From NCBI GenBank assembly GCA_903845135.1, contig CAIMWL010000025.1, forward strand, positions 528 through 64,527: 64,000 nucleotides of DNA. The letters run 5' to 3'. A program made the position numbers and the translations under genes. This DNA is from an uncultured Bacillales bacterium. Its GTDB lineage: Bacteria > Bacillota_I > Bacilli_A > RFN20 > CAG-826. Positions within the stretch are counted from its first letter, which is position 1, and each line of letters opens with the position of its first letter. This document shows, piece after piece, positions 757-59,686 of the stretch. Under the pieces are notes generated by a model. That model saw only the letters and a list, made by a program, of their open reading frames with translations, had not been told where the DNA came from and ran no database searches.

Positions 757-841
757 TGGTGCAGGTAGGGAGACTCGAACTCCCATGGGTTACCCCATAC
801 GCCCCTCAAACGTACGCGTCTACCAATTTCGCCATACCTGC
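757..841 (-). tRNA. tRNA-Leu (anticodon GAG)
   Basis: The reverse complement folds as a type-II tRNA. Acceptor is GCAGGTA/TACCTGC. Anticodon stem is TACGT/GCGTA with loop TT-GAG-GG. It has a long variable arm (TGGGGTAACCCAT), a T-arm GGGAG-TTCGAGT-CTCCC, and an encoded CCA. Confidence 0.9.
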
Positions 842-10711: not shown

Positions 10712-10802
10712 TGGCGGAGAAAGAGGGATTTGAACCCTCGCGCCCGGTTAAGGACCTACAAGCTTTCCAAGCCTGCCCCTTCAGCCACTTGGGTATTTCT
10801 CC
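10712..10802 (-). tRNA. tRNA-Ser (anticodon GGA)
   Basis: The reverse complement is GGAGAAA-TA-CCCAAGTGGCTGAAGGGG-CAGGC-TTGGAAA-GCTTG-long variable arm-GAGGG-TTCAAAT-CCCTC-TTTCTCC-G-CCA, 91 nt. An extended -10 (TGTTATAAT on the minus strand, 10812-10820) lies 9 nt upstream of +1. Confidence 0.9.
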
Positions 10803-24851: not shown

Positions 24852-24942
24852 TGGCGGAGAAAGAGGGATTTGAACCCTCGCGAGACTTGCGCCTCCTATC
24901 AGTTTTCGAAACTGACCCCTTCAGCCACTTGGGTATTTCTCC
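24852..24942 (-). tRNA. tRNA-Ser (anticodon CGA)
   Basis: The acceptor, D- and T-arms are identical to tRNA-Ser(GGA). The anticodon arm is TCAGT-TTCGAAA-ACTGA, with a long variable arm and encoded CCA. TGTATAAT (minus strand) lies 9 nt upstream of +1. Confidence 0.9.
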
Positions 24943-36258: not shown

Positions 36259-36332
36259 TGGAGCAGGTGACGGGAATCGAACCCGCGTAATTAGCTTGGA
36301 AGGCTAATGTTCTACCACTGAACTACACCTGC
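36259..36332 (-). tRNA. tRNA-Gly (anticodon UCC)
   Basis: GCAGGTG-TA-GTTCAGTGGTAGAAC-A-TTAGC-CTTCCAA-GCTAA-TTACG-CGGGT-TCGATTC-CCGTC-ACCTGCT-CCA (74 nt). Confidence 0.9.
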
Positions 36333-36724: not shown

Positions 36725-37585
36725 TTATAAACTCACAACATAATATATCGCATAGAGCACAACGAAGTGTAAAGGATAATATAAGTAACTAAACCATTGA
36801 AACCATTTTGGACTTGCCCCTTTTACGCCTCGATATTGGTAAATAAAATATGCAGCAAATACGGCATATGTCTGGGCTCCCACAAATCGATTCATGTAGT
36901 CAACCACAAGTCCTGAAAGATTGAATCCATCAATCAAAACAACACTTATTATATACCATAGAATGTGCATCGCGATAAGAACCACGCTCGCAAATTGGTA
37001 ACGCTTTTGTTCAATGGTGAGTTCCATTTTTCCTACTTTAAACCAATTGAGTTGATAGAAAAATTCAGGCAATTTTAAATATGAAAGGAAAAATAATAAC
37101 ATCATCATAAGTCCATATACACCATAATCAGCGCTAAGATAATTGGGAATTTGATCGTTAAAGCTTGTTATTAAAACATAACCAATGGGTAGTATCGCCA
37201 ATATACGCAAGGGAAATGATTTTTGTTTAAATAAATTCATCGCGAGCGCAGCCATTGTCAAATCGATGAAAATATTACCCGATAGAGCTTGGATGCCAAC
37301 TTCACCTAAAATAAACATCGACAACCCAATCAAAACACCCATGATGGCGAGTCGGCTAATGTATCGCCAAGGTTGTTTGGAACGAAAAATACCTTCGGCA
37401 ATCATAAATCCAAATAAAGGAAAAGCGAGTCTTCCAATTAATCTTGCCAGGAGATAAAGGGTGCTGATGGTTTGATTTTGACTAAATGGTAATAATACTA
37501 ATACGCCAAAATGATCCACTGTCATGGTGATAATCGCTAACCATTTTAATTGATATGCACTAAAACTTTTTGACTGGATATTCAT
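36725..37585 (-). CDS. TraX-family polytopic membrane protein
   Basis: YQLKWLAIITMTVDHFGVL is the TraX-type N-terminal signature. 286 aa and highly hydrophobic. Confidence 0.65.
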   Translation of the reverse strand: MNIQSKSFSAYQLKWLAIITMTVDHFGVLVLLPFSQNQTISTLYLLARLIGRLAFPLFGFMIAEGIFRSKQPWRYISRLAIMGVLIGLSMFILGEVGIQALSGNIFIDLTMAALAMNLFKQKSFPLRILAILPIGYVLITSFNDQIPNYLSADYGVYGLMMMLLFFLSYLKLPEFFYQLNWFKVGKMELTIEQKRYQFASVVLIAMHILWYIISVVLIDGFNLSGLVVDYMNRFVGAQTYAVFAAYFIYQYRGVKGASPKWFQWFSYLYYPLHFVVLYAIYYVVSL

Positions 37586-38349
37586 GATAAAGACCCAGAT
37601 GAGCTAATCATGCTTGCTTCCGCAATAATTGCTAATACTGAAAAGAGATTATTGATAATGTGAGTGGAAATGGCGACTTGTAAGCCAAATCGATCATAGA
37701 GAAAACAAAACCATGCTCCTGCAATTAAGTAAATGGGTAAGTTTAACAATTCATTGATGAGATTGGCTGCAGTGAAATCGAAATGAATAAAACCAAAAAT
37801 GATTAAGGTCAAAAGATAAGCCAAAAGTTTGTTTTTTTTCTCCAAATATTTGTAAATTCCTAATCGGTAAGTCCATTCTTCAACAATCGGTCCTAAAAAT
37901 CCGAATGTGAAAATTGATATGATTGGTGAATCTTGAACAAGCGCCACAATGGCACTTTGATTTTGATTATCCTCAAGGACAATACCAAGAAAATCATAAA
38001 CGGTGATAATGGCGAAAGAACTAAATAAAATCACAAAAGTAAAGGGAAATCCTAGAAGCCATTTTGAAGATTGGATTGCAGGTATAAATGACCGTTTTAA
38101 ATAAGGAAACAAAATCACAAAGCTAACCATAAAGATTGATAGATAAGTTAAAAAGTTGATAATTTGAAAAAATAGAGGGCTTTCTAAAAAAATAACTGCA
38201 TCATTTTGGTTGAAAAAGAATGGAACCATGATCGGGATAATGATGGCAAAAATCAACGCAAAAACCCATAATCCAAGCCACCCAAGAAAAAACAGCATTA
38301 ACGATTGATTATTGGTGGTGTCTTCATTTTTAACAAGATTATTTGTCAT
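37582..38349 (-). CDS. CPBP-family (CAAX/Abi) intramembrane glutamic protease
   Basis: Motifs GPIVEEWTYRLG (EExxxR), FGFIHF (FxxxH) and THIINN (HxxxN). ATGA overlap with the traX-like gene. ATG 38349 is preferred over 38394, which would sit inside the divergent promoter. An A9 tract immediately precedes ATG 38349. Confidence 0.8.
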   Translation of the reverse strand: MTNNLVKNEDTTNNQSLMLFFLGWLGLWVFALIFAIIIPIMVPFFFNQNDAVIFLESPLFFQIINFLTYLSIFMVSFVILFPYLKRSFIPAIQSSKWLLGFPFTFVILFSSFAIITVYDFLGIVLEDNQNQSAIVALVQDSPIISIFTFGFLGPIVEEWTYRLGIYKYLEKKNKLLAYLLTLIIFGFIHFDFTAANLINELLNLPIYLIAGAWFCFLYDRFGLQVAISTHIINNLFSVLAIIAEASMISSSGSLS

Positions 38350-38429
38350 CTTTTTTTTTCTATATCTTTTGATATGATAGCACACCAAAATCATATAAAA
38401 TGAAAGGGTAAGTCTCCTGGAGGTTTAAT

Positions 38430-41400
38430 ATGTTTTCAATTTTAAGTTTTGGCATTGATCCTACTCAAATTGCCCAGTATTTAGATTATGCATTGTATGG
38501 CATTTTTGGGATGGTTGCTTTAGGTTTTATTCTTGGATTTTTACGTGGGGTTTGGCGTGAAGGGTTTCGTTTACTTTTTGTTGGCGGACTGGTGATTGCT
38601 TCGGTCCTCTTCACTAGACAAATTGTAGATTTTGCCATGGACTACGATGTCTCAAGTATCGCCTCGAGTGCTGGATTTGGTTCCATCGCCTTAAATTTAA
38701 ATGGTGCTCCGATTATTGTTTCTGTGACAACGCCATATGAAACTATTTATGAAATTTTAGAACAAGCATTACTAGCATTTGGTTTCTTTATCACCCCTGC
38801 AATCGCTGATTTAATCATTGGTTTAACCTTAGTTTTGTTGAGATATTTAGTATTTATTGTGCTCGCCATCATTATTTTCTTACTTGGTGAAAGCGTTGCC
38901 GCTATTTTATATTTCATTCCTTTCCGATTCTTAATTCCTAGAAATGTCAGAAAAAAAATGAAAATGCGTCTATTGGGTGGTTTAGCTGGCGCCTTAAAAA
39001 TGGTATTAGTTTTGACAATGTTTCTTTCCCCTTTTACCTCTTTAGTTAACACGATTACCGGTTCCTTTAAAGATTTTGATGAGGAATACGGCGATCAAAT
39101 TGATGCAGAGCTTTACAACGAAATTATGACGTTTGTGAATGCCTACAATGACTCTACATTTGCCCAAACTTTATTCTCTTGGTCAATAACGGATGATGGT
39201 TTAAGTATTGATACCGCCTTGATGGATTATGTGACAGGTCAAGATTTAGATGCATATCGTTTAACGCTTGCCAATGAATTAGGTTCATTTGTTGATATTG
39301 CTGCAACTTTAATTGGTAGTGGCGCAGTTGATAGTACCTTTGCAACAATCGACACTTCGCTATTAATTACCGAAGATGTTGTGACAAATTTGATTACTTC
39401 GTTAACAGGGTCTGTCTTAATTATGAAGCTACTTCCGATTGCTGTGACCATCGGATTAAATCTAGATGAGGTCTCACCATTCTTAGATCCCGACTTAATT
39501 AATTTAGATGATTTAGTTTGGGAAGATGAGTTGAACTATATCGGTGATATTTTTACAGGCGTGATTCGTTCAGGTGTTTTGACGCCTATTTTAGCAGGAA
39601 ATACGGACACCTTAACGCTCATTAACACGATGTTTACGCCTACAGCAAAAGACGAAGTATTGATGATGCTCGAAACCCTAGATACCTCACCATTTCTTTC
39701 ACAGGTTATTCCTGCAGTACTTTATAAACTGGTGACAGATGAAATAAATGCCGGTGGACCAGCAGGTGGTATTGGTTTATCAACATTTTTACCAACAGCA
39801 TGGAGTGAATATGAATCACTTTCCTTTGGTTCTGAATTAAGCCTCATCTATGAATTAGTCTATGAATTAAATGAAGGCGTAGATGGGTTACTGGATGTGG
39901 TATTGCCTGCGAATCAAAATCAAGCACCATTGGGTAGAAAATTTGTTGATGAACCTACCCCAACGCTCATTGATTTATTAAAAGATAATTTTGATTTATT
40001 TGTTGAAGTACTGATTGGTGAAGTGGATGAAGATGGATTACCTATCAATAATGATCCTACGGAGGGCACCTCGATTAATCGGCGGGCTTTGTTGGATTCC
40101 AATCTCATCGTGAATGGGCTACCAACCATTGTCGAGGATTTATTATTACCAACCCTTACCAGTATCGCAGGGGAAACCTTTGATGATACCGAATTAAATA
40201 CGCTAATATCTGACTTTAATAGTGGCAGTCGAGGTGACATTCGCCTTGATTATAAAGGTGAATTTGCAGGGATTTTTAGTATTCTTGGTGCGGTATTAGA
40301 AAACGAAACCCTTATCAGTTTGATTCAACCGGAACCAGGTCAAGCCCTTGATATTTTAGCGCTCCTTGAAGATGGCGCATTTAGAAGTGGCTTAAAAGCA
40401 GATTTAATTCCTGCATTAGATCGCTCCCAAATTATTCTTACCGTGGTCCCAGGAATTCTAGAATCCACACTGACAGGTGCTGGTTTTGATGATTTCTTAA
40501 GTTTAATTTCGTTGACGACTGCTGATCTAAATTTTGAATTTGAAAGCTTATCCCGAGAATTAACGATTGTCGTGGATATGATGGGTTATGCATTTAATGT
40601 TTTAGATGCTAGTGCAGATTTATTAAATCAATTTCCTACCATTGCCTATGATTTAATTGGCTTACTCGACAATATTTACTACTCAGATATTATCAATCTC
40701 AACCCAACCACCAATAATAAGACCACCAACTTCAATCAAATTATTAAAGGCATTTTCTCTTTAGTTGAAGGCATTGGCATCGAAGAAACTGACATTGACA
40801 CCGGTTTTAATCGTGTTGGACCTTCTGGATTAGAAAATGGTTGGACTACCACCTTCATTGATACGAATGGTAACGATAAATTAGATGCATTAGACACCAT
40901 CTCATTTAGAGGTGAAAATTTCCATCTAATCAATTTCTTAAAAACTGCACTAGAATCTGGTTTGTTAGATATTTCTGGCGATATTTTTGCCGCACTTGAA
41001 GATTTAACGACTGGAAGTGAAGACATCGATGATCCAGACGTGGCCACATTATATAAAATCTTTGCCTATGCTGATCGTTCTGAAATCATCGCTGCAGCAT
41101 TTGGTGGCATTCTCGATAATTTATTTGGCACCACGGGTGGTTTATTGGATGCAGACTTAGGAACCTCCTTCAGGAATGTCACATCGTGGACAGAAGAAGG
41201 TTCAACTTTGATGTATCTAGTGAAACAATTAACCAATTTTGCTGATGGATTAGAAAATATTGATTTCTTAAATTCTGATGTTTCGATGATTGAAGAACTC
41301 TTGCAAGGCCTCGCCGCATCACAAATATTTATAAAACCTAACGGGGATTATGTCTTTCCAGATTTTTTATTAGATCAACTGACTGGCATCGCAGATTTGG

Positions 41401-44400
41401 CAAGTTATTTTGAAGACCCCGCTCCCTATCAATCCACATGGGATGATGATGCAACGGATAATTTCACTATTGTGACAGAAGATTTTTATGCCATTAGTAA
41501 TCAAGCGTCTACGAGAGCAAATTGGTACGGTGTTAAAGCCATGATTACCGATGGTAATGGTGACCCTATTCTCGATTTAAACGGTGATGTTCAATTTGAA
41601 TATGTAGGTGGTGAATTAGAAAACATCGTCGGGTTTATTTCAGAATTACAATCAGTCTCAATTAGTGATCTTACATCAGGCACTGGTTTAAGTGGCGAAA
41701 CGATATCGGATGTTTTGCTTGCTCTAAATAATGCTTCCTCTTTACGAGTGTTAGTCTATAACGTATATGATTCCATTTTTGGTGGCACCAATTTTGATAT
41801 TGGGTCTTTATCTTTATCGGACACGAATACATTTGTTTTCTTGGATTTAAATCAAGCAGGTAGGGCTGAACAAATTCAGGCTACCGCGGATTTATTAGAC
41901 ACCATCAGTGAAATGGGACTTGATGGCGGTGGTGCTTTTGACATTGCCAACTTTGATGAATCCACCATCTTAACCGTTGGTGATTTATTAACAATTTTGC
42001 ATGATGCTGCCTTATTTAACTCTTTTAAATTAGGACGTTCCCGTCTCAATGGTGATCTAACTGTATTTGAACAAGCTTATCAATTTTTACTGACGACGGC
42101 TACCCTTGATACCTTTATTTATGATGGTTTAACCGCTCCTCAACGGGAAGCGGCCCTCTACCAAGATATAGTTGCTTTAAATAATAATTTTGGAAATGAA
42201 ACCCCAGATGACTGGGATGGTGTGGATGGTGAAATTCAACGCTTTGTTGATATCATGGTGTCTTTTGTCAATACCGGTATTGATTTTGCCAATTTTGGTG
42301 GAGATGCAATCGGTGATTTATTAAATACCGAAGTTGGTCTAGGAAAAGTAGAAGATCTGTTATTATCGATGAACGAATCAACGATTATTTCACCTGCAAT
42401 CGGAAATTTATTTGGTAATGTATTTGATTCCGATGCCTTCAATATTGGCGGATTAACGATGTCAGATGCTAATACAGGATATTTTAATGCGGAACCCGTT
42501 AAGGCAAATCGGGCTACAGAAATCAGTTTAATTCTCGATATTTACTGGGATATCAATAGTATCGGTATCACCGGTGGTGCTGCTTTTTCTGCAGACTTAA
42601 TTGATCCAGTTTTATTTGATGCTTTACTCAACAAAATGCATGATTCTCGCGTCTTTAATTCGTTTAAATCTGGCAATACGTATTTATTGGATGATTTAAC
42701 CATCTTTGAACAAACGGTACGCATGATTCTGAATACCTCTACGCTTGATACTTTTATTTATGATGAACCAATTAATGCAAACCGATTATTATTACTCCAA
42801 GATGATATTGCTGAATTAGATAATAATTTTGGAACAAGTTTAACGGATGATGATTGGACTGGGAACAACGGTGAGATTAATCAAATCATCGGTATCCTTG
42901 AATCCTTTAAAGAAACCGATATCGATTTTGCAAATTTCGGTGGAGATGCTATTTCGGATTTACTTAGTACAGGTCCGGGATTAACCAAAGTTGAAAACCT
43001 ATTATTATCGATGAATTTATCGACTTTAGTCTCGCCTTCCATTGGCAATTTATTTGGTAATATCTTTGATTCCGATTCATTTAATATTAACGGTTTAACG
43101 ATGTCAGATTCTAATACTGGATACTTTAATCAAGAATCCGTTAAATTAAATCGAGCTCAAGAAATTTCACTCATCCTTGATATTTATAGTGATATTTCAT
43201 CGATTGGATTATCTGGTGGGGCGGCATTCACTAAAGATAAAATTGATCCATTATTGTTTGATCAATTATTAAATAATATGTACTTGTCCAAGGTGTTTAA
43301 TACATTTAAACTTGGTAATAGTTATCTGCTGAATGATTTAACCATTTTCGAACAAACAATTAGTATGATCCTCAATACTTCAACGATTGATACTTTTATA
43401 TACGATGGGGAAATCAATAGTGCAAGATTAATTCTTTTACGCGAAGATATTGAGCATTTAACGAATAGTTTTGCCAATCCAAGTATCAGTAATGATTGGT
43501 TGGGTAATACTGGGGAAATTGCAAACATAATTAATGTATTAGAAAAATTTAAAGCGTTAGATATTGCAGACTTTTCAAGTTTTTCTGGGGCTGGTTCCAG
43601 TGATGTATTGTCAGATTTAACCGAAACAGAAGCAGGCTTAGCTTCAGTTGAAAATTTATTATTTGCCATGAATAGTTCAGCGATTGTTTATCCTGCGATA
43701 CCCAATCTTTTTTCTAACATGTTAAATGCTGGTGCTATTGGCGGTTTAGATGTTGATTTTTCACTGGCCAATACTCGTTATCGTGGCAATCGCAATGATC
43801 CCAACAACCTCCAAGTTGGCAATCAATACTTGCCATACCAAGAATCAGAAATTTCAAACATCCTTGCCATCTTTAAGAATGTGAAAGATGTTGGTACTAA
43901 GCAATATGACAACTTAAACTTATTAACCAATGATGAAATTGATGATATGCAATTTTTATTAGAAGATTTACATGATTCCAATGTATTCCACCAGCAAGGA
44001 CCTAGTTCCGGATTAACGAGCGACTTAACTGTTTTTGAACAAATGGTGGTGATGATGATGAATCAAACCCGTGTTTCTGATTTAATTTATGACTTGAATA
44101 ATCCAAATCCAATTTATATTGGCGCATTTACCACTAAGGAAGAAAAAGCTGAATTCTTAGTTCTGAATTTTGCCACGCTATTTCCGGTAAATAATCTCAC
44201 CCACTTTACCTCAAGTTGGTTAAATACTGCAACTGAAAGCGGTGAATTAACTCGTTTCTTTACAATTTTTAAAGTATTAAAAGCAAACTTACCTGGCGTC
44301 GGTAACTTGGATGGTATCGATGTTGGGGCAATTTCACCCAATGGCATTAGTAATATTATGGCCGCATTAAATTATTCTTCGCTTGCCAGTGATGCAGTTC

Positions 44401-45686
44401 CTGATTTAGTCAAAGATGCCTTTGGTTTTATTTCTTTTTCCACTTACACAGAAAATAACGAAAATTATTACTTAAATCCAAGACAATATGCGTTGACTGA
44501 TTTAAACCAAATGGATTATTCAGGCGTTAATCCTGTAATTGTCCAAACTGGCGTCATTGCTCAAGCGCTCAATAATTTCTATGATAATGATACGAATGCC
44601 TATTTAGATTTAGGGGCAAACTTCAACATGAAAGATTACTTGGAGGATGGTAATTCAACCTTTGCTATTCTTGATTTATTAGCGCGAAGTCAACTCTTTG
44701 GCAATCAAGCAACCATCATTAACGATCCCTCCAATCTTGCCTTAGGTTTGCAGCCCACGAGCTTAACTTTTAAAACTAGAGCCCTGACATTCTTTAATTT
44801 ATTGGATGGCTCTGGGGTGACAAAGTACTTCAATTATTTGAATACCACTGCCGATGAAAAAGAAAAGAAAGTAGATCGCATTGAAGATATTTTTGCCGGC
44901 GACTTTGATACGGTTTTTGAAGCGAATCGACTTGATCAATTTATTGCTGTGCTCTCTGATTTCACTGCCCTCACCGATGCCTCCTCATTGAGTGATAATC
45001 CCAATGAAATGAGGTCATTAATGACACTTACGTACGCCAATACAGGTTACACCATTACGGATCGTGCTTTCTTAGTTTCTGAATTATCCGCTGGGTTCTT
45101 TACGGATATTTTCAATGAAGAATATGCAAATGTCTTGGATACCAATGCTCCTTTCTTTGGTGACAGTGGTAATTTGACCAAACGCATTAATTTTTATGAC
45201 GGCAATCCGAGTAATGGTATCAGTAATGATTTTTTAAACCTCAATCCATACGAAGCAGATGGTCTTGAAGGTTCATTACGATACTTGAATGTGATTGCGG
45301 GTATATCTGATGACTATATCGCGAGTGGATTTGATCCTAATTATGACCCTGGATCGACGCGCATTGCTTTGATGAAAGCCTCAATGGTATTGATGGGAAG
45401 CTTATCTAATAACCAAGTCACTGGGACTGCCCCATTCGGTCCAACTCATGATTTAAATGCTTATGATTACTCCTTATGGACAACTAGTGGTAATTCACAA
45501 ATTGCTAAACTTTTCTATGCTTCACAAGTTGTGCAAGCACCTGGTTTTACATTCTTTAGTCAACTTGTCACTGCTCGATCATTAGTGTTAAATCCAACAT
45601 TCCCTGTTAACTTAACAACAAGTGCATATGCCACCAACTTTGTGTTTGAAATTGAAGGCGAAAAAATAGAGTATATTTTTGCTTGA
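38430..45686 (+). CDS. Giant (2418 aa) acidic repeat protein with N-terminal CvpA-like multi-TM anchor; function unknown
   Basis: Single uninterrupted ORF with GGAGG 7 nt upstream of the ATG. The first ~210 aa contain about 5 hydrophobic segments, and the first (YALYGIFGMVALGFILGFLRGVWREGFRLLFVGG) resembles CvpA. The rest is rich in D/N/L/T/S, I found no Cys on reading, and there is no catalytic motif. Confidence 0.85.
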   Translation: MFSILSFGIDPTQIAQYLDYALYGIFGMVALGFILGFLRGVWREGFRLLFVGGLVIASVLFTRQIVDFAMDYDVSSIASSAGFGSIALNLNGAPIIVSVTTPYETIYEILEQALLAFGFFITPAIADLIIGLTLVLLRYLVFIVLAIIIFLLGESVAAILYFIPFRFLIPRNVRKKMKMRLLGGLAGALKMVLVLTMFLSPFTSLVNTITGSFKDFDEEYGDQIDAELYNEIMTFVNAYNDSTFAQTLFSWSITDDGLSIDTALMDYVTGQDLDAYRLTLANELGSFVDIAATLIGSGAVDSTFATIDTSLLITEDVVTNLITSLTGSVLIMKLLPIAVTIGLNLDEVSPFLDPDLINLDDLVWEDELNYIGDIFTGVIRSGVLTPILAGNTDTLTLINTMFTPTAKDEVLMMLETLDTSPFLSQVIPAVLYKLVTDEINAGGPAGGIGLSTFLPTAWSEYESLSFGSELSLIYELVYELNEGVDGLLDVVLPANQNQAPLGRKFVDEPTPTLIDLLKDNFDLFVEVLIGEVDEDGLPINNDPTEGTSINRRALLDSNLIVNGLPTIVEDLLLPTLTSIAGETFDDTELNTLISDFNSGSRGDIRLDYKGEFAGIFSILGAVLENETLISLIQPEPGQALDILALLEDGAFRSGLKADLIPALDRSQIILTVVPGILESTLTGAGFDDFLSLISLTTADLNFEFESLSRELTIVVDMMGYAFNVLDASADLLNQFPTIAYDLIGLLDNIYYSDIINLNPTTNNKTTNFNQIIKGIFSLVEGIGIEETDIDTGFNRVGPSGLENGWTTTFIDTNGNDKLDALDTISFRGENFHLINFLKTALESGLLDISGDIFAALEDLTTGSEDIDDPDVATLYKIFAYADRSEIIAAAFGGILDNLFGTTGGLLDADLGTSFRNVTSWTEEGSTLMYLVKQLTNFADGLENIDFLNSDVSMIEELLQGLAASQIFIKPNGDYVFPDFLLDQLTGIADLASYFEDPAPYQSTWDDDATDNFTIVTEDFYAISNQASTRANWYGVKAMITDGNGDPILDLNGDVQFEYVGGELENIVGFISELQSVSISDLTSGTGLSGETISDVLLALNNASSLRVLVYNVYDSIFGGTNFDIGSLSLSDTNTFVFLDLNQAGRAEQIQATADLLDTISEMGLDGGGAFDIANFDESTILTVGDLLTILHDAALFNSFKLGRSRLNGDLTVFEQAYQFLLTTATLDTFIYDGLTAPQREAALYQDIVALNNNFGNETPDDWDGVDGEIQRFVDIMVSFVNTGIDFANFGGDAIGDLLNTEVGLGKVEDLLLSMNESTIISPAIGNLFGNVFDSDAFNIGGLTMSDANTGYFNAEPVKANRATEISLILDIYWDINSIGITGGAAFSADLIDPVLFDALLNKMHDSRVFNSFKSGNTYLLDDLTIFEQTVRMILNTSTLDTFIYDEPINANRLLLLQDDIAELDNNFGTSLTDDDWTGNNGEINQIIGILESFKETDIDFANFGGDAISDLLSTGPGLTKVENLLLSMNLSTLVSPSIGNLFGNIFDSDSFNINGLTMSDSNTGYFNQESVKLNRAQEISLILDIYSDISSIGLSGGAAFTKDKIDPLLFDQLLNNMYLSKVFNTFKLGNSYLLNDLTIFEQTISMILNTSTIDTFIYDGEINSARLILLREDIEHLTNSFANPSISNDWLGNTGEIANIINVLEKFKALDIADFSSFSGAGSSDVLSDLTETEAGLASVENLLFAMNSSAIVYPAIPNLFSNMLNAGAIGGLDVDFSLANTRYRGNRNDPNNLQVGNQYLPYQESEISNILAIFKNVKDVGTKQYDNLNLLTNDEIDDMQFLLEDLHDSNVFHQQGPSSGLTSDLTVFEQMVVMMMNQTRVSDLIYDLNNPNPIYIGAFTTKEEKAEFLVLNFATLFPVNNLTHFTSSWLNTATESGELTRFFTIFKVLKANLPGVGNLDGIDVGAISPNGISNIMAALNYSSLASDAVPDLVKDAFGFISFSTYTENNENYYLNPRQYALTDLNQMDYSGVNPVIVQTGVIAQALNNFYDNDTNAYLDLGANFNMKDYLEDGNSTFAILDLLARSQLFGNQATIINDPSNLALGLQPTSLTFKTRALTFFNLLDGSGVTKYFNYLNTTADEKEKKVDRIEDIFAGDFDTVFEANRLDQFIAVLSDFTALTDASSLSDNPNEMRSLMTLTYANTGYTITDRAFLVSELSAGFFTDIFNEEYANVLDTNAPFFGDSGNLTKRINFYDGNPSNGISNDFLNLNPYEADGLEGSLRYLNVIAGISDDYIASGFDPNYDPGSTRIALMKASMVLMGSLSNNQVTGTAPFGPTHDLNAYDYSLWTTSGNSQIAKLFYASQVVQAPGFTFFSQLVTARSLVLNPTFPVNLTTSAYATNFVFEIEGEKIEYIFA
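41724..44366 (+). repeat. Four in-frame tandem repeats of ~214-233 codons inside the giant ORF
   Basis: Units start at 41724, 42369, 43011 and 43668. Shared landmarks are MN(E/L/S)ST..SP(A/S)IGNLFGN.FDSD.FNI.GLTMSD.NTGYFN, EISLILDIY, GGAAF and DLT(V/I)FEQ...TLDTFIYD. Units 2 and 3 are the most similar, roughly three quarters nucleotide identity by eye. Confidence 0.85.
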
Positions 45687-45696
45687 TGACTGCGCT

Positions 45697-46455
45697 ATGA
45701 AAAAGTCTTTTCAGCTAAATTTAAAAAGCCAAGTCAAAAAAACCATCGCGATCATGTCTAGTAAAGGCGGTGTAGGTAAAAGTACCATCACCGCTTTGCT
45801 TGCGACCCATCTTACAAAAATCGGAAAAAAAGTTGGCATTTTAGATGCGGATGTAATTGGACCCACGATGTCGCGACTTTTTGCTTTAAAGGGTAAAATG
45901 GTAGGCCAAGATGGGTTGATTTTGCCCTTGACGACTCCGTTAGGAATTCGCCTTATTTCTTCTCAATTACTGCTTGACCAATCGGATGATCCTATCATTT
46001 GGCGTTCGCCACTCGTGTTAGATTTAATTCGCCAATTCTATGTCGATGTCATTTGGGGGGAGTTGGATTACCTTCTTATTGATTTACCACCGGGAACGGG
46101 TGATGTAACCATGACCGTGTTAGAAAGCCTAAATGTGGATGAAATTATCATGGTGACAACCCCACAGGAAATTGTTCAAGATCTTGTCAGTAAAGGGATT
46201 CAAATGGCAAAAATAATCCACAAACCGATTTTAGGATTGATTGAAAACTACAGCTATTTTATGTGTGATGATTGCCACAAAAAACACCCCTTATTTCAGA
46301 CGAGCGATCGACAACCTCTTTGGGTAAAATACCAATTACCACTATTAGCACAATTACCGTTAGATGCTAAAATACCGAAATTGATAGATAGTGGTAAGAT
46401 AGAAACAATTGAGATTGAAAGCATCAATCAATTAATCAACACTTGGAGGCATTAA
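45697..46455 (+). CDS. mrp: Mrp/ApbC/NBP35-family P-loop ATPase (Fe-S cluster carrier type)
   Basis: Motifs SSKGGVGKST (deviant Walker A), DADVIGPT, WRSPL, DYLLIDLPPGTGD and FMCDDCHKKHPLF (CxxC). The start is ATG 45697, or TTG 45679 which overlaps the giant ORF by 8 nt. Confidence 0.85.
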   Translation: MKKSFQLNLKSQVKKTIAIMSSKGGVGKSTITALLATHLTKIGKKVGILDADVIGPTMSRLFALKGKMVGQDGLILPLTTPLGIRLISSQLLLDQSDDPIIWRSPLVLDLIRQFYVDVIWGELDYLLIDLPPGTGDVTMTVLESLNVDEIIMVTTPQEIVQDLVSKGIQMAKIIHKPILGLIENYSYFMCDDCHKKHPLFQTSDRQPLWVKYQLPLLAQLPLDAKIPKLIDSGKIETIEIESINQLINTWRH

Positions 46456-49440: not shown

Positions 49441-49932
49441 TTATACTAAGGTGTGGACATAATTCGCCATAAGCGCTTTAAATCTTGGATAGGAGAAAAA
49501 GGCCTCAGAAGCACTTAGACGATGAACTCTATTCGTTTCTAAAAATATATATAAGGTTGGTGTTGAAAACCCTTCAGGAAAATACTGAGGAAATTGATTT
49601 TGAATCATTGGCAGTTGATGAAGATTTTCAAGTGTGTCTAAGTAATAGACAAGTGCATTCGTCTCATCAATCCAGGTAATCAGGTTTGGTTGAAATCTTA
49701 TGCAGCTACTGCAACTGGGATTTCCTAGATACAAAAGATAATAATCAGACGATAAAGATAAGGTTTCTAAGGATTCCAAATCTAAACGAACCACCCAGTT
49801 ATCAATGGAGGGGTTATTCGCGACCGAATTTGGTAAGTTTGAATTGATGGGAATCCCAATGGTTTGAGCATGCGAAACACACGAAGAAATCATCAATAAA
49901 AGCGTTAAATATATAGGCGTTTTAAGTTTCAT
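49441..49932 (-). CDS. Lipoprotein with thioredoxin-fold-like CxxC region
   Basis: Signal peptide plus lipobox (LLLMISSC). YLLYLGNPSCSSCIRFQP (CxxC) and STPTLYIF (cis-Pro-like) are arranged as in Trx-fold proteins. Confidence 0.55.
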   Translation of the reverse strand: MKLKTPIYLTLLLMISSCVSHAQTIGIPINSNLPNSVANNPSIDNWVVRLDLESLETLSLSSDYYLLYLGNPSCSSCIRFQPNLITWIDETNALVYYLDTLENLHQLPMIQNQFPQYFPEGFSTPTLYIFLETNRVHRLSASEAFFSYPRFKALMANYVHTLV

Positions 49933-57022: not shown

Positions 57023-58072
57023 ATGGAAAGTATCTTTGGACAAACCTTAGTTCAATTAGAAAATACCCTTGAATCTTGGGGACAAAAGGCCTTTTATGGC
57101 AGTGTCATTTACGATTGGATTTATCAAAAGAAAATTCGAAATTTCCAAGCGATGTCTAACTTGAGCCTTGAACTAAGACAAGCGCTTGAAAAACATTTTC
57201 ATTTTCAATTACCTGTCATTCATGTTCGGCGTGATTCATTAGATCGGACTGTTAAATTACTTTTAAAACTTGAAGATGGATTTTTAATTGAAGCGGTTTT
57301 AATGCGCTACAACTATGGCAATGTCATCTGTGTTACCACGCAGGTGGGATGCAATATTGGCTGTTCTTTTTGTGCATCAGGCTTATTAAAACGTCAACGA
57401 AATTTAACCGCGGGAGAAATGATTGCTCAGATCGTCGTCATGAATGACCTTTTAGATGCCGAAGGTCGAAAAGAAAGAGTGAGTCATATTGTGGCGATGG
57501 GAACAGGTGAACCTTTTGATAATTATGACCATGTGATGAATTTTATTCGCATTGCTAATCATAATAAGGCCCTAGCAATTGGCGCTCGTCATATTACGGT
57601 TTCCACCTCTGGTTTTCCCGAAAAAATCAAGCAATACGGGCATGAACCTTTGCAAATTAACTTAGCAGTTTCTTTGCATGCTCCAACCAATGAAATTCGC
57701 ACACGATTGATGAAAATTAATCAAGCCTTCCCTTTAGAAAAGCTCATTCCTGCGATTCAAGATTATCAAACCAATTCAGGTCGGCGCATTACCTTTGAAT
57801 ATATTTTGATTGAAGGCATCAATGATCAAATTGAGCATGCCATTCAGTTAGCGGCTTTAATTAAAGATCTATTTTGTTATGTCAATTTAATTCCTTACAA
57901 CGCGGTGATGGAGAATGAATATCGTCGCCCCCATCCTCAAGCGGTGAATGCGTTTATGTCAAAATTAATTGAACTTGGCATCAATGCAACCGTACGAAAA
58001 GAATTTGGTCATGATATCGAAGCAGCATGTGGACAATTGAGGGCAAAACATAAGCATGAAGAAACGCGGTAG
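57023..58072 (+). CDS. rlmN: 23S rRNA/tRNA (adenine-C2)-methyltransferase RlmN (radical SAM)
   Basis: Motifs CNIGCSFCASG (CxxxCxxC), GTGEP and a C-terminal catalytic Cys (EAACGQL). Confidence 0.95.
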   Translation: MESIFGQTLVQLENTLESWGQKAFYGSVIYDWIYQKKIRNFQAMSNLSLELRQALEKHFHFQLPVIHVRRDSLDRTVKLLLKLEDGFLIEAVLMRYNYGNVICVTTQVGCNIGCSFCASGLLKRQRNLTAGEMIAQIVVMNDLLDAEGRKERVSHIVAMGTGEPFDNYDHVMNFIRIANHNKALAIGARHITVSTSGFPEKIKQYGHEPLQINLAVSLHAPTNEIRTRLMKINQAFPLEKLIPAIQDYQTNSGRRITFEYILIEGINDQIEHAIQLAALIKDLFCYVNLIPYNAVMENEYRRPHPQAVNAFMSKLIELGINATVRKEFGHDIEAACGQLRAKHKHEETR

Positions 58073-58799
58073 TTTTGCCTTTAAAACTGATATTGGCAAG
58101 GTGAGAACCAGCAATGAGGATCAAGTGGTGGCGATGGTCAATCGCCATCAGGATGTTTTGCTAGGGGTTGCAGATGGGATGGGTGGTCATGCCCGTGGCG
58201 ATCTTGCTAGTCGCTTAGCGATGCAATCCTTAATCAAAGGTTTTAAAAATACATTTGGTTTATTAACTTCTAAAACTGCCACCCTTTGGTTACGGCAACA
58301 AGTGGTGCAAGCAAACCGCACGATCTATCAAGAAGCCCAAAAAAGTTCATCTTTAAAGGAAATGGGCACAACGCTTGTCATCGCCTTAATCGTCAATAAA
58401 GACTTAATCATCTTAAACATAGGCGATTCTAGAGTCTATCTCTTTGAAGGTCAACAATTAACGCAGGCTACAGAAGATCAAACCTATGTCGAATATTTGT
58501 TCCGGCAAGGAAAAATAACAGAAGCGCAAAAAGCGAATCACCCGCAACGACATGTTTTACTCAATGCTTTAGGTCTCAATACCTCCGTTTCCTATGATGT
58601 CAAAATTATTCCCTATACCGGACAAACGATTCTTGTTTGTAGTGACGGCTTGTATAACAATCTTACCGAAGGTGAATTATCAAGTATCATTCGTTCAAAA
58701 GACACCCCTCAACAAAAGGTGGATTCATTGATTAACTTAGCGAATGCCAATGGCGGAAATGACAATATTGCCGTGGCAATTTGGGAATCTGAAACATGA
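58056..58799 (+). CDS. stp: PP2C-family Ser/Thr phosphatase (Stp/PrpC)
   Basis: Motifs RTSNEDQ, VADGMGGHARGD, CSDGL and GGNDNIAV. Confidence 0.92.
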   Translation: MKKRGSFAFKTDIGKVRTSNEDQVVAMVNRHQDVLLGVADGMGGHARGDLASRLAMQSLIKGFKNTFGLLTSKTATLWLRQQVVQANRTIYQEAQKSSSLKEMGTTLVIALIVNKDLIILNIGDSRVYLFEGQQLTQATEDQTYVEYLFRQGKITEAQKANHPQRHVLLNALGLNTSVSYDVKIIPYTGQTILVCSDGLYNNLTEGELSSIIRSKDTPQQKVDSLINLANANGGNDNIAVAIWESET

Positions 58800-59686
58800 T
58801 TAAAGATTTCGATATCATTGATGAACGCTACCGCATCATTAAAGAAATAGGCGAAGGTGGATTTGCCTATGTTTATCAAGCTGAAGATTTAATTACAGGT
58901 AAAGAAATCGCTTTAAAAATTATTAAAGAAAATGCGATTAAATCAAAAGATAATGTCACTCGATTTGAAAGGGAAGCACGCGCTTCCGCTTCCTTAAATC
59001 ACCCTAATATTGTTCGGGTGATCAATATTGGTTACCATCAAAACTTACCCTATATGGCCTCGGAATTGATTAAAGGCAAAACCTTAAGAGGGTTGTTGGA
59101 TGAACAAAAACGATTTAGTTTTAAGCAAGCTTGTGAAATGATGTATCAACTTTGTGACGCAGTTGCCTTCGCCCATAACTCCTTGGTTATCCATCGCGAT
59201 ATTAAACCTGATAATGTTTTTTTAACCCCTGATGAAACAATCAAACTCGGTGATTTTGGCATTGCTTTTTTTGAGAATTCTCGTCGCGTCACTAAAAGTC
59301 AAGTGATCATTGGGTCGGTTCATTACTTACCACCCGAAGTAACCAACGGGCAATCCCCAACTTTCAAAAGCGACATTTATTCTTTAGGGATTACGTTTTT
59401 TGAGTTGATCACCGGCAAAGTCCCTTATGAAGGGAACAATCAAATTACGGTGGCGATGCGCCATATCAAAGAAAGATTTCCATCCCCTAGACAATGGATT
59501 CCTTCAACCCCAAGAATCATCGAAAATATTATTCTCAAAGCCTGCAGAAAAAATCCAAATGACCGATATCGATCGGTCCTGGAATTCCAAAGGGATATTA
59601 AAGAATGTCTAGATCATCCTAAATTAATAACCCCAAAACGATCGTTCTGGGCAAAATTACTGGGATTAAAAGTAGATGAAGTATGA
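58796..59686 (+). CDS. prkC: Hanks-type Ser/Thr kinase, kinase domain only (no TM, no PASTA)
   Basis: Motifs GEGGFAYVY...ALKII, HRDIKPDN, DFGIA and YLPPE. The ORF stops ~25 aa after the kinase core. ATGA overlap with both neighbours. Confidence 0.9.
   Translation: MIKDFDIIDERYRIIKEIGEGGFAYVYQAEDLITGKEIALKIIKENAIKSKDNVTRFEREARASASLNHPNIVRVINIGYHQNLPYMASELIKGKTLRGLLDEQKRFSFKQACEMMYQLCDAVAFAHNSLVIHRDIKPDNVFLTPDETIKLGDFGIAFFENSRRVTKSQVIIGSVHYLPPEVTNGQSPTFKSDIYSLGITFFELITGKVPYEGNNQITVAMRHIKERFPSPRQWIPSTPRIIENIILKACRKNPNDRYRSVLEFQRDIKECLDHPKLITPKRSFWAKLLGLKVDEV

What the first reader, a model, noticed from the sequence alone, without database searches (positions are those of the whole stretch)
38430..45686. 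Giant cysteine-free acidic protein on a CvpA-like membrane anchor
- **Size:** At 2418 codons this is by far the largest gene in an otherwise compact housekeeping window.
- **Anchor:** The first ~210 aa contain about five hydrophobic helices. The opening segment (LGFILGFLRGVWREGFRLLFVGG) resembles the CvpA family of small inner-membrane proteins.
- **Body:** About 2200 aa of D/N/L/T/S-rich, K/R-poor sequence follow. I could assign no enzymatic, LPXTG, lipobox or known adhesin motif, and I found no Cys on reading the translation.
- **Expression signals:** It has a good SD and a plausible own promoter (TTGATA ... TATAAA, 38369-38399).
- **Neighbours:** It is divergent from a CPBP-protease operon, and an Mrp-type ATPase gene follows within 10 nt or overlaps it.
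- **Why it matters:** A CvpA domain used as the anchor of a megadalton-scale extracytoplasmic array is not an architecture I know to be described. In a wall-less cell it could be a surface coat, spacer or adhesin, or a membrane-remodelling scaffold.
Basis: partly seen in the sequence, partly recalled or inferred. Interest (0 to 1): 0.75.

Follow-up and report, generated by a model that had tools for sequence, protein, structure and literature searches.

The report
Giant CvpA-anchored acidic helical surface protein
This is an intact, conserved 2418-residue gene from an uncultured freshwater Bacilli bacterium; it encodes a very acidic, almost entirely helical protein that a distant relative of the small membrane protein CvpA most likely holds on the outer face of the cell membrane, and it belongs to a large family that no database or paper searched here describes.

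Summary
ORF 38430-45686 (+) encodes 2418 aa with no Cys, 329 D+E against 105 K+R, and hydrophobic helices only in the first ~210 aa.

**Anchor.** The CvpA idea is supported as remote homology, not as family membership.
- Pfam Colicin_V scores 10 bits for this protein, below the 29.3-bit cut-off.
- It is nevertheless the Pfam family matched by most members (16 of 51, best E 3e-5).
- A profile-profile alignment to CvpA gives E 2.7e-5 and is collinear over four TM helices and both CvpA motifs.
- CvpA's near-invariant Asp is lost.

**Topology.** Charge distribution across 204 family members places the 2200-aa body outside the cell, matching the predicted periplasmic C-terminus of CvpA.

**Body.** AlphaFold models (pLDDT 81 and 86) are almost entirely helical. 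Foldseek finds only weak HEAT/ARM-type solenoid matches. The body contains four ~215-aa tandem repeats whose number varies between homologues.

**Family.** At least 591 clusters (50% identity), nearly all giant proteins and homologous along their length. All come from metagenomes or MAGs of Bacilli, plus one weaker relative in a complete Mycoplasmatota genome. Pfam, NCBIfam, PDB, PADLOC and PHROGs give no significant match.

**Function.** Untested. My best guess is a membrane-tethered polyanionic surface scaffold.

The parts
38374..38401 (+). Promoter-like site ATGATA-16-TAAAAT
Evidence: Consensus scan, 9 of 12 positions. Not evidence of function.
38419..38423 (+). Shine-Dalgarno GGAGG, 6 nt before the ATG
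   Evidence: Read directly from the sequence.
38430..45686 (+). Giant ORF, 2418 aa plus stop
   Evidence: The identical protein is called on 3 public contigs.
38481..39050 (+). CvpA-like four-TM anchor (aa 18-207)
   Evidence: hhalign against a CvpA profile: E 2.7e-5, collinear. Colicin_V is the Pfam family matched by most members, 16 of 51.
38493..38543 (+). TM1 (aa 22-38)
   Evidence: Hydropathy, AlphaFold helix 11-39, aligns to CvpA TM1.
38544..38570 (+). Cytoplasmic loop RGVWREGFR (aa 39-47), carrying the CvpA-type 'RG' motif
   Evidence: G40 is kept in 179 of 185 members and position 39 is R or K in 171 of 185. Mean K+R is 2.45 in 9 aa.
38571..38615 (+). TM2 (aa 48-62)
38643..38792 (+). 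Insert in the outside loop (aa 72-121): a beta hairpin plus a helix, absent from CvpA
   Evidence: AlphaFold strands 85-90 and 93-98, helix 102-116. It is a gap in the CvpA alignment. The loop has a net negative charge.
38796..38933 (+). TM3, one long hydrophobic helix (aa 123-168)
   Evidence: AlphaFold helix 123-168. Aligns to CvpA TM3.
38937..38969 (+). Basic cytoplasmic loop PRNVRKKMKMR (aa 170-180)
   Evidence: Mean K+R is 6.0 in 11 aa over 204 members. K175, K178 and R180 are nearly invariant.
38970..39044 (+). TM4 (aa 181-205), aligned to the CvpA motif 'DRxLGxxFGxxRG'
   Evidence: q178-195 KMRLLGGLAGALKMVLVL aligns to CvpA TDRVLGVCFGALRGVLIV. The Asp position is hydrophobic in this family.
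39030..39050 (+). Family hallmark motif P-F-T-S-L-V-N (aa 201-207) at the outer end of TM4
   Evidence: P201 is kept in 184 of 185 members and N207 in 174 of 185.
39051..41705 (+). Conserved helical core of the body (aa 208-1092)
   Evidence: AlphaFold model 1: pLDDT 81.4, nearly all helix. This core matches in nearly all of 144 distant members. Invariant residues include Y239, S242, D261, E611, S666, N756, W920 and E923.
41706..42350 (+). Repeat R1 (aa 1093-1307)
   Evidence: Self-comparison and alignment.
42351..42992 (+). Repeat R2 (aa 1308-1521)
   Evidence: 67% identical to R3.
42993..43649 (+). Repeat R3 (aa 1522-1740)
43650..44369 (+). Repeat R4, degenerate (aa 1741-1980)
   Evidence: 23-35% identical to R1-R3.
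44370..45683 (+). C-terminal helical domain (aa 1981-2418)
   Evidence: AlphaFold model 2: pLDDT 85.7. Conserved in many distant members.
37582..38394 (-). Divergent neighbour: CPBP / Rce1-like intramembrane protease
   Evidence: Pfam PF02517, E 1.1e-14. Adjacent to the giant gene in 6 of the 7 loci with upstream sequence, down to about 21% identity; absent in the Mycoplasmatota relative.
36725..37585 (-). TraX-family membrane protein, in an operon with the CPBP gene
   Evidence: Pfam PF05857, E 2.9e-26.
45697..46455 (+). Mrp/NUBPL-type P-loop ATPase, probably co-transcribed
   Evidence: Pfam PF10609, E 9e-79. Gene call starts at 45697. No terminator-like site in between. Not adjacent in P0050 and P0208.

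Best explanation
The gene encodes a polytopic membrane protein. Its first ~207 residues form a diverged CvpA-type four-helix membrane module, with both the N-terminus and the C-terminus outside the cell. In ordinary CvpA the C-terminal tail outside the membrane is short and variable. Here it has grown into a ~2200-residue, strongly acidic (net about -220), almost entirely helical, solenoid-like body. TM4 continues as one helix into this body.

The body has three parts: a conserved core next to the membrane (aa 208-1092), a cassette of ~215-aa repeats whose copy number differs between lineages, and a conserved C-terminal domain.

I infer that it works as a non-enzymatic, membrane-tethered surface scaffold or polyanionic coat. 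It would set surface charge and spacing and offer a large binding surface for cations or partner proteins.

- **Shown:** the ORF, its composition, the family, the repeats, the synteny and the helical fold prediction.
- **Inferred with good support:** the CvpA relationship and the outside location.
- **Inferred weakly:** the scaffold or coat function.
For: - **ORF and composition:**
- **Family size:** an exhaustive profile search with the N-terminal domain finds 591 clusters (E <= 1e-3). Most of the top 150 are 1500-3000 aa with the domain at residues ~1-240. Of those, 144 match along the body of a full-length HMM, with variable numbers of the repeat.
- **CvpA link:** Colicin_V is the Pfam family hit by most members (16 of 51, best E 3.2e-5; runner-up 6 of 51). 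hhalign against a 9-sequence CvpA profile gives probability 74%, E 2.7e-5 and score 37.8. Column-shuffled controls score 11.5 +/- 2.1, maximum 19.6. The alignment is collinear over TM1-TM4 and both motifs.
- **Topology:** K+R cluster in loop 1 and loop 3, while the N-tail, loop 2 and the segment after TM4 are net negative, over 204 members. CvpA is predicted to be four-pass with a periplasmic C-terminus of variable length. MarP gives a precedent for a four-TM anchor carrying a periplasmic domain.
- **Cys:** the chance of no Cys is about 4e-7. This fits the Cys exclusion reported for proteins of aerobic Firmicutes (PMC2823432).
- **Fold:** pLDDT 81.4 and 85.7, nearly all helix. The only Foldseek neighbours are HEAT/ARM solenoids.
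- **Selection and position:** the gene sits at one fixed place among housekeeping genes, and its whole length is conserved.
Against: - The window protein itself is far below the Pfam Colicin_V threshold (10 bits against 29.3), and the hhalign probability is only 74%.
- CvpA's near-invariant Asp is not kept.
- No dedicated topology predictor was available and no experiment exists. TM3 is a 46-residue hydrophobic helix; if it crossed the membrane twice, the body would be cytoplasmic.
- Distant family members are not Cys-poor, and Cys-free proteins are common in this genome (9 of 40 ORFs, including enolase). Cys-lessness is therefore weak evidence for export.
- Helical solenoids are typical of intracellular scaffolds.
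- No expression data exist.
- The scaffold or coat function rests on composition and the absence of enzyme domains.
Confidence: 0.55

Rival explanations
1. The helical body is cytoplasmic: a membrane-attached internal scaffold or cytoskeleton-like element, as helical solenoids usually are.
For: - Foldseek neighbours are all intracellular eukaryotic solenoids.
- The hydrophobic stretch 112-169 could hold two passes, which would flip the C-terminus to the inside.
- Distant members have ordinary Cys content.
Against: - It would put the six-residue K/R cluster at 170-180 outside and the acidic segments inside, against the positive-inside rule, in 204 members.
- It contradicts the predicted CvpA topology.
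- AlphaFold models 123-168 as a single helix.
Confidence: 0.15
2. It is exposed outside but acts as an adhesin or particle/host-binding protein, or as a variable phage-facing surface, rather than as a structural coat.
For: - Size, membrane anchoring and variation in repeat number.
- Family members occur in both freshwater and gut or rumen metagenomes.
Against: - It is a single-copy gene at a fixed place among housekeeping genes.
- Its whole length is conserved about as well as its membrane-protein neighbours.
- It has no beta-rich Ig, cadherin or lectin-type domains.
Confidence: 0.15
3. It is a precursor. The neighbouring CPBP intramembrane protease cuts at the nearly invariant P-F-T-S-x-x-N motif at the outer end of TM4 and releases the body; TraX may then acylate it.
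For: - CPBP and TraX lie divergently next to the gene in 6 of the 7 loci with upstream sequence, down to about 21% identity.
- P201 and N207 are nearly invariant.
Against: - The whole block of gene order is conserved, so adjacency may reflect only shared ancestry of gene order.
- AlphaFold models TM4 and the first body helix as one continuous helix, 180-223.
- The Mycoplasmatota relative has no such neighbours.
- There is no biochemical evidence.
Confidence: 0.1
4. It is a chance ORF, an assembly artefact or a decaying gene.
For: None found.
Against: - The identical protein is called on 3 independent contigs.
- 50 close homologues and hundreds of distant ones have the same architecture.
- AlphaFold models are confident.
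Confidence: 0.01

Closest known systems
CvpA (colicin V production protein; Pfam PF02674 Colicin_V)
   Same: - Four TM helices.
- An 'RG' motif in a short basic loop after TM1.
- An R-x-L-G-x-x-x-G-A-L-[KR] motif at the start of TM4.
- Predicted N-terminus and C-terminus outside, with a variable extracytoplasmic C-terminal segment.
   Different: - About 15 times longer.
- A 50-residue insert in the outside loop.
- Below the Pfam threshold.
- The near-invariant Asp is replaced by a hydrophobic residue.
- CvpA's own function is unknown, so nothing about function can be carried over.
MarP (Rv3671c) family membrane serine proteases of mycobacteria
   Same: - N-terminal four-TM anchor followed by a domain outside the membrane (PMC4992679).
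- NF033740 is the NCBIfam model that most family members weakly match.
   Different: - MarP carries a ~200-aa chymotrypsin-fold protease.
- This protein has no protease or other enzyme domain, and its body is ~2200 aa of helical solenoid.
HEAT/ARM-type alpha-solenoid scaffolds (CRM1, CAND1, importin-beta, SF3B1)
   Same: Long, all-helical, repeat-built, non-enzymatic architecture. These are the best Foldseek neighbours.
   Different: - Matches are not significant (best E 6e-3, TM about 0.1).
- The only Pfam HEAT-type match is a sub-threshold one in the distant relative P0245 (Cohesin_HEAT, E 0.9); the window protein has none.
- Those proteins are soluble, intracellular and eukaryotic.
Giant surface proteins of wall-less bacteria (for example the Mycoplasma mobile gliding proteins; from my own knowledge, not tested here)
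   Same: Very large, membrane-anchored, surface-located proteins in relatives of Bacilli.
   Different: No sequence or fold relationship was tested or found. Those proteins have single-pass anchors and mixed folds.

Membership tests
CvpA / Pfam PF02674 Colicin_V | Scores above the curated Pfam gathering threshold (29.3 bits) | tested here: not met
   10.3-10.5 bits, E 0.6-0.7 for the N-terminal 238-242 aa. Nothing for the full-length protein at E <= 1.
CvpA / Pfam PF02674 Colicin_V | Statistically supported remote homology at family (profile) level | tested here: met
   Colicin_V is matched by 16 of 51 members, best E 3.2e-5; the next family is matched by 6 of 51, best E 0.75. hhalign profile-profile gives E 2.7e-5 and score 37.8, against 11.5 +/- 2.1 for shuffled columns. 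The probability is only 74%, so this is likely rather than certain.
CvpA / Pfam PF02674 Colicin_V | Four TM helices, basic TM1-TM2 loop with an 'RG' motif, and a G-rich motif at the start of TM4 | tested here: met
   Collinear alignment. G40 kept in 179 of 185 members, R/K39, R/K180. G183 and G187 are the commonest residue at their positions, in 91 and 77 of 185 members.
CvpA / Pfam PF02674 Colicin_V | Near-invariant Asp before TM4 (reported as nearly 100% conserved in CvpA homologues) | tested here: not met
   The aligned position (aa 179) is L, G, M or V across the family.
CvpA / Pfam PF02674 Colicin_V | N-terminus and C-terminus outside, with an extracytoplasmic C-terminal segment | tested here: inconclusive
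   The positive-inside pattern over 204 members agrees. No dedicated topology predictor or experiment was available.
MarP-like membrane serine protease (NF033740) | Chymotrypsin-fold protease domain after the four-TM anchor | tested here: not met
   No trypsin or protease family in Pfam or NCBIfam. The body is all helical. Only weak matches, presumably to the anchor, in 4 of 51 members.
HEAT/ARM alpha-solenoid repeat proteins | Recognisable HEAT/ARM repeat profiles or a significant structural match | tested here: not met
   No Pfam repeat family for the window protein. Foldseek best E 6e-3 to 3e-2, TM about 0.1. The general helical-solenoid character is met.
Gram-positive wall-anchored or lipid-anchored surface proteins (LPXTG, lipobox, SLH) | C-terminal LPXTG sorting signal, N-terminal lipobox, or wall-binding domains | tested here: not met
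   The C-terminus is ...FEIEGEKIEYIFA. The protein has no Cys, so no lipobox is possible. No Pfam domains.
Known anti-phage defence or phage protein families | Match to PADLOC or PHROGs models | tested here: not met
   PADLOC gives no family. PHROGs gives one unannotated family at E 0.0016 over 39 aa.

The most novel reading that the evidence does not exclude
In a lineage of Bacilli that has lost its wall and its teichoic acids, this single core gene supplies a protein substitute for them. It would be a lipid-bilayer-tethered polyanionic helical exoskeleton, tens of nanometres long. It would buffer cations, set surface charge and spacing, and vary its reach through the repeat cassette. This would be a new class of bacterial envelope component, built on a CvpA module reused as an anchor.
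Probability: 0.15. Interest if true: 0.8.

Novelty: new variant of a known kind. Interest (0 to 1): 0.55.

Why it matters
- **For CvpA:** CvpA is very widespread but has no known mechanism. This family shows that its four-helix module can carry a 2200-residue extracytoplasmic body. That supports the published suggestion that the C-terminal tail is where CvpA proteins diversify.
- **For these bacteria:** the family is large (at least 591 clusters), conserved, single-copy and entirely unannotated in uncultured Bacilli and Mycoplasmatota-like bacteria from lakes, rivers and guts. It is a strong candidate for a major envelope component of these organisms.
- **As a target:** the family has a nearly invariant motif (PFTSxxN) and a set of invariant polar residues in the core. 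It would be a good target for structural work and for a new Pfam/NCBIfam model.

Tried and rejected
- **Pfam and NCBIfam, full length:** nothing significant.
- **PADLOC and PHROGs:** nothing useful.
- **Profile of the family against PDB sequences:** only chance-level hits, MCM at E 0.013.
- **Foldseek against PDB (both halves) and BFVD (second half):** no hit with E < 1e-3.
- **Word-indexed profile searches:** returned only the same family and no CvpA-annotated protein.
- **TRF at DNA level:** does not see the 642-nt repeat. BLASTP of the whole protein against itself reported only the diagonal, so I tiled the query instead.
- **A genuine CvpA gene in 524 kb of held loci:** none found.
- **EF-hand or dockerin-like Ca-binding loops:** 2 pattern matches against 0.5 expected. 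This is not enough to claim anything.
- **Names and taxonomy for 20 distant clusters:** no organism more specific than 'Bacilli bacterium'.
- **Literature searches:** CvpA with giant proteins, CvpA with Mollicutes, and giant proteins in Tenericutes found no description of this family.
- **First structure job:** One large alignment exceeded the size limit and a second failed internally.
- **Wall-lessness of the host:** could not be established from 64 kb.
Full report
**1. The observation**

The ORF is real and matches the description. It runs from 38430 to 45686 on the + strand and encodes 2418 aa. It is the largest ORF in the window; the next is 755 aa.

Composition is 13% L, 8.7% D, 7.7% N and 4.3% K+R, with no Cys. 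Forty other window ORFs carry 0.61% Cys, so the chance of none in 2418 aa is about 4e-7.

Strongly hydrophobic stretches occur only at 17-42, 44-67, 112-169 and 180-209. A GGAGG lies 6 nt before the ATG.

The neighbours are as stated. A divergent Rce1-like CPBP protease, TraX and thioredoxin lie upstream. An Mrp/NUBPL-type ATPase starts 10 nt after the stop, or overlaps it by 8 nt if the TTG start is used. There is no terminator-like site between the giant gene and Mrp.

**2. It is a gene, and the family is large**

The identical protein is called on three public contigs. A first search gave 50 homologues at 24-91% identity. Where a source names them, they are hypothetical proteins from MAGs of 'Bacillota' or 'Bacilli bacterium'. 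Genome and metagenome scans placed close relatives in river and lake MAGs.

An exhaustive HMMER search with a profile of the first 238 aa found 591 clusters (50% identity) at E <= 1e-3, of which 230 had E <= 1e-10. Most of the top 150 are 1500-3000 aa long and carry the domain at their N-terminus.

A full-length HMM of the close clade matches 144 of these along the body. The pattern is a conserved core (HMM positions 1 to ~1250), a variable number of copies of one repeat (HMM ~1500-1700), and in many members a C-terminal domain.

None of 20 sampled distant clusters carries a name more specific than 'Bacilli bacterium'. One weaker relative, homologous over only ~400 N-terminal residues, lies in a complete 3.2-Mb genome labelled Mycoplasmatota bacterium, CP074573.

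Pfam, NCBIfam, PADLOC, PHROGs and PDB sequences give no significant match.

**3. The anchor**

For the window protein alone, Colicin_V (PF02674) is the top Pfam hit, but at 10 bits against a 29.3-bit cut-off. Three further tests raise this to a likely remote homology.

- **Pfam scan of family members.** Among 51 members scanned one by one, Colicin_V is matched by 16 (best E 3.2e-5). The next most frequent family is matched by 6 (best E 0.75).
- **Single CvpA sequence.** The family HMM hits it in two collinear pieces (E 8.6e-4). hhalign scores 24.0 against 12.2 +/- 2.0 for shuffles.
- **CvpA profile.** With eight further proteobacterial CvpA sequences, profile-profile hhalign gives probability 74%, E 2.7e-5 and score 37.8. 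Column-shuffled controls give 11.5 +/- 2.1, maximum 19.6.

The alignment is collinear:
- aa 18-71 correspond to CvpA TM1, the 'RGfvrE' loop and TM2;
- aa 122-170 correspond to TM3;
- KMRLLGGLAGALKMVLVL (aa 178-195) corresponds to TDRVLGVCFGALRGVLIV at the start of TM4.

Residues 72-121 are an insert, modelled as a beta hairpin plus a helix.

CvpA's near-invariant Asp is replaced by L, G, M or V. The family instead has its own hallmark, P201-F-T-S-x-x-N207, with P kept in 184 of 185 members.

In NCBIfam the model that most members weakly match is the MarP family protease, presumably through its four-TM N-terminus.

My verdict is that the anchor is CvpA-like, not a CvpA family member.

**4. Topology**

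Over 204 family members, K+R cluster in loop 1 (2.45 in 9 aa) and in the loop before TM4 (6.0 in 11 aa). The N-tail, the long loop 2 and the segment after TM4 are net negative.

By the positive-inside rule this gives four passes, with the N-terminus and the body outside. AlphaFold models 123-168 as a single helix, and TM4 as one helix (180-223) that runs on into the body.

The same topology is predicted for CvpA itself. CvpA has a periplasmic C-terminus that varies in length between species and seems to be needed for function (bioRxiv 10.1101/2020.09.25.314492). MarP has four N-terminal TM helices and a periplasmic protease domain (PMC4992679).

Cys-lessness fits the Cys exclusion reported for aerobic Firmicutes (PMC2823432), but it is weak evidence. 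Nine of 40 other ORFs here also lack Cys, and distant, mostly gut-derived members carry 5-28 Cys.

**5. The body**

Two AlphaFold2 jobs with 40-42-sequence alignments covered residues 1-1200 (pLDDT 81.4, pTM 0.53) and 1219-2418 (pLDDT 85.7, pTM 0.66). Both are almost entirely helical, with a few short hairpins.

Foldseek against the PDB finds nothing with E < 1e-3. The best neighbours are HEAT/ARM-type solenoids such as TBCD, UNC-45, CAND1, CRM1 and SF3B1, with TM about 0.1. BFVD, searched with the second half only, gives nothing.

Four tandem repeats of ~215 aa lie at 1093-1307, 1308-1521, 1522-1740 and 1741-1980. R2 and R3 are 67% identical, R1 and R2 44%, and R4 is 23-35% identical to the others.

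Homologue lengths of 2848, 2418, 2196 and 1965 aa differ by whole repeats. The missing stretches map to the repeat cassette.

Acidity is spread evenly along the chain.

Conservation is also even along the whole length, at 45-77% per 100-aa block in relatives that are 58-63% identical overall. In the same genome pairs the protein diverges about as fast as the TraX and CPBP neighbours. At long range it diverges faster than PepP, PRK or Mrp.

The core holds invariant polar residues, including Y239, S242, D261, E611, S666, N756 and E923. Their role is unknown.

**6. Context**

The order Ham1, Trx, TraX, CPBP, then divergently the giant gene, then Impact_N and/or Mrp, PepP and further genes, is kept down to about 21-25% identity of the giant protein. 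Because a long block is collinear, adjacency alone does not show a functional link. Mrp is missing next to P0050 and P0208. The Mycoplasmatota relative has a different neighbourhood.

The host's wall status is not settled. The window encodes a 296-aa PknB-type kinase without PASTA domains, which is only a hint.

**7. Interpretation**

My best explanation, at confidence 0.55, is a diverged CvpA-type four-helix anchor whose variable extracytoplasmic tail has grown into a polyanionic helical solenoid. It would act as a non-enzymatic surface scaffold or coat, with the repeat cassette setting its length.

The architecture and the family are shown. The outside location is well supported but predicted. 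The function is inferred from composition, from the lack of enzyme domains, and from the gene being single-copy, at a fixed position and evenly conserved.

The rivals are a cytoplasmic scaffold (0.15), an adhesin or binding protein (0.15), a precursor processed by the neighbouring CPBP protease (0.10) and an artefact (0.01).

**8. Novelty**

I found no description of this family in the databases or papers searched. The principle of a four-TM anchor carrying an outside domain has a precedent in MarP, and CvpA tails are known to vary. I therefore rate it a new variant of a known kind rather than categorically new. It is a sizeable, unannotated protein family and probably a main envelope protein of an uncultured group.

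Noticed in passing
window 58796-59686 (+), with PP2C at 58056-58799: The PknB-type Ser/Thr kinase in the usual rsmB-rlmN-PP2C-kinase-rsgA-rpe cluster is only 296 aa and has a Pkinase domain alone. There is no TM segment or PASTA repeats. This is a hint that the host does not sense peptidoglycan, but it is not proof of wall-lessness.
   Followed up: partly
window 37582-38394 (-): The CPBP protease ORF can start at 38394, which leaves only a 35-nt gap to the giant gene and would cover the promoter-like site. Alternatively it can start at the internal Met at 38349. Homologues are 251-285 aa, so the start is ambiguous.
   Followed up: partly
window 40860-40895 (aa 811-822 of the giant protein) and aa 1041-1061: DTNGNDKLDALD looks like an EF-hand or dockerin-type Ca-binding loop, and DGNGDPILDLNGD lies in a small beta region. 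Pattern matches number only 2 against 0.5 expected by chance, so nothing can be claimed.
   Followed up: partly
window 2340-4607 (+): A 755-aa fusion of an LPG_synthase_TM membrane domain with GT4-type glycosyltransferase domains. It is possibly a membrane glycolipid synthase.
   Followed up: no
window 49441-49932 (-): A 163-aa PedC-like protein with a lipoprotein-type signal (…LMISSC) and a CSSC motif. This is a likely extracytoplasmic thiol-disulfide oxidoreductase in a genome that otherwise avoids Cys.
   Followed up: no
window 33620-35592 (-): A gene pair with overlapping ends: a zinc-ribbon plus DUF6320 membrane protein (234 aa) and a 428-aa protein with weak alcohol-acetyltransferase / PapA-type matches. 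The pair is also present in the 58%-identity relative.
   Followed up: no
L029 10001-14947 (CP074573, Mycoplasmatota bacterium): A 1648-aa protein, KHQ81_01285, shares only the CvpA-like anchor and about 200 further residues with this family (E 4.9e-22 against the family profile). It sits next to an ISL3 transposase and has no CPBP or TraX neighbours. It may be a second, shorter architecture built on the same anchor.
   Followed up: partly
family members in alignment A5: One member gave a weak NCBIfam match to the Spiroplasma motility-associated membrane protein Scm1 (E 0.0025). It is a single hit and probably reflects TM composition.
   Followed up: no
window 760-841, 10715-10802, 24855-24942, 28257-28346, 36262-36332: Five tRNA genes and no rRNA in the window. 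The one at 36262-36332 lies between the Ham1 and thioredoxin genes of the conserved block.
   Followed up: no
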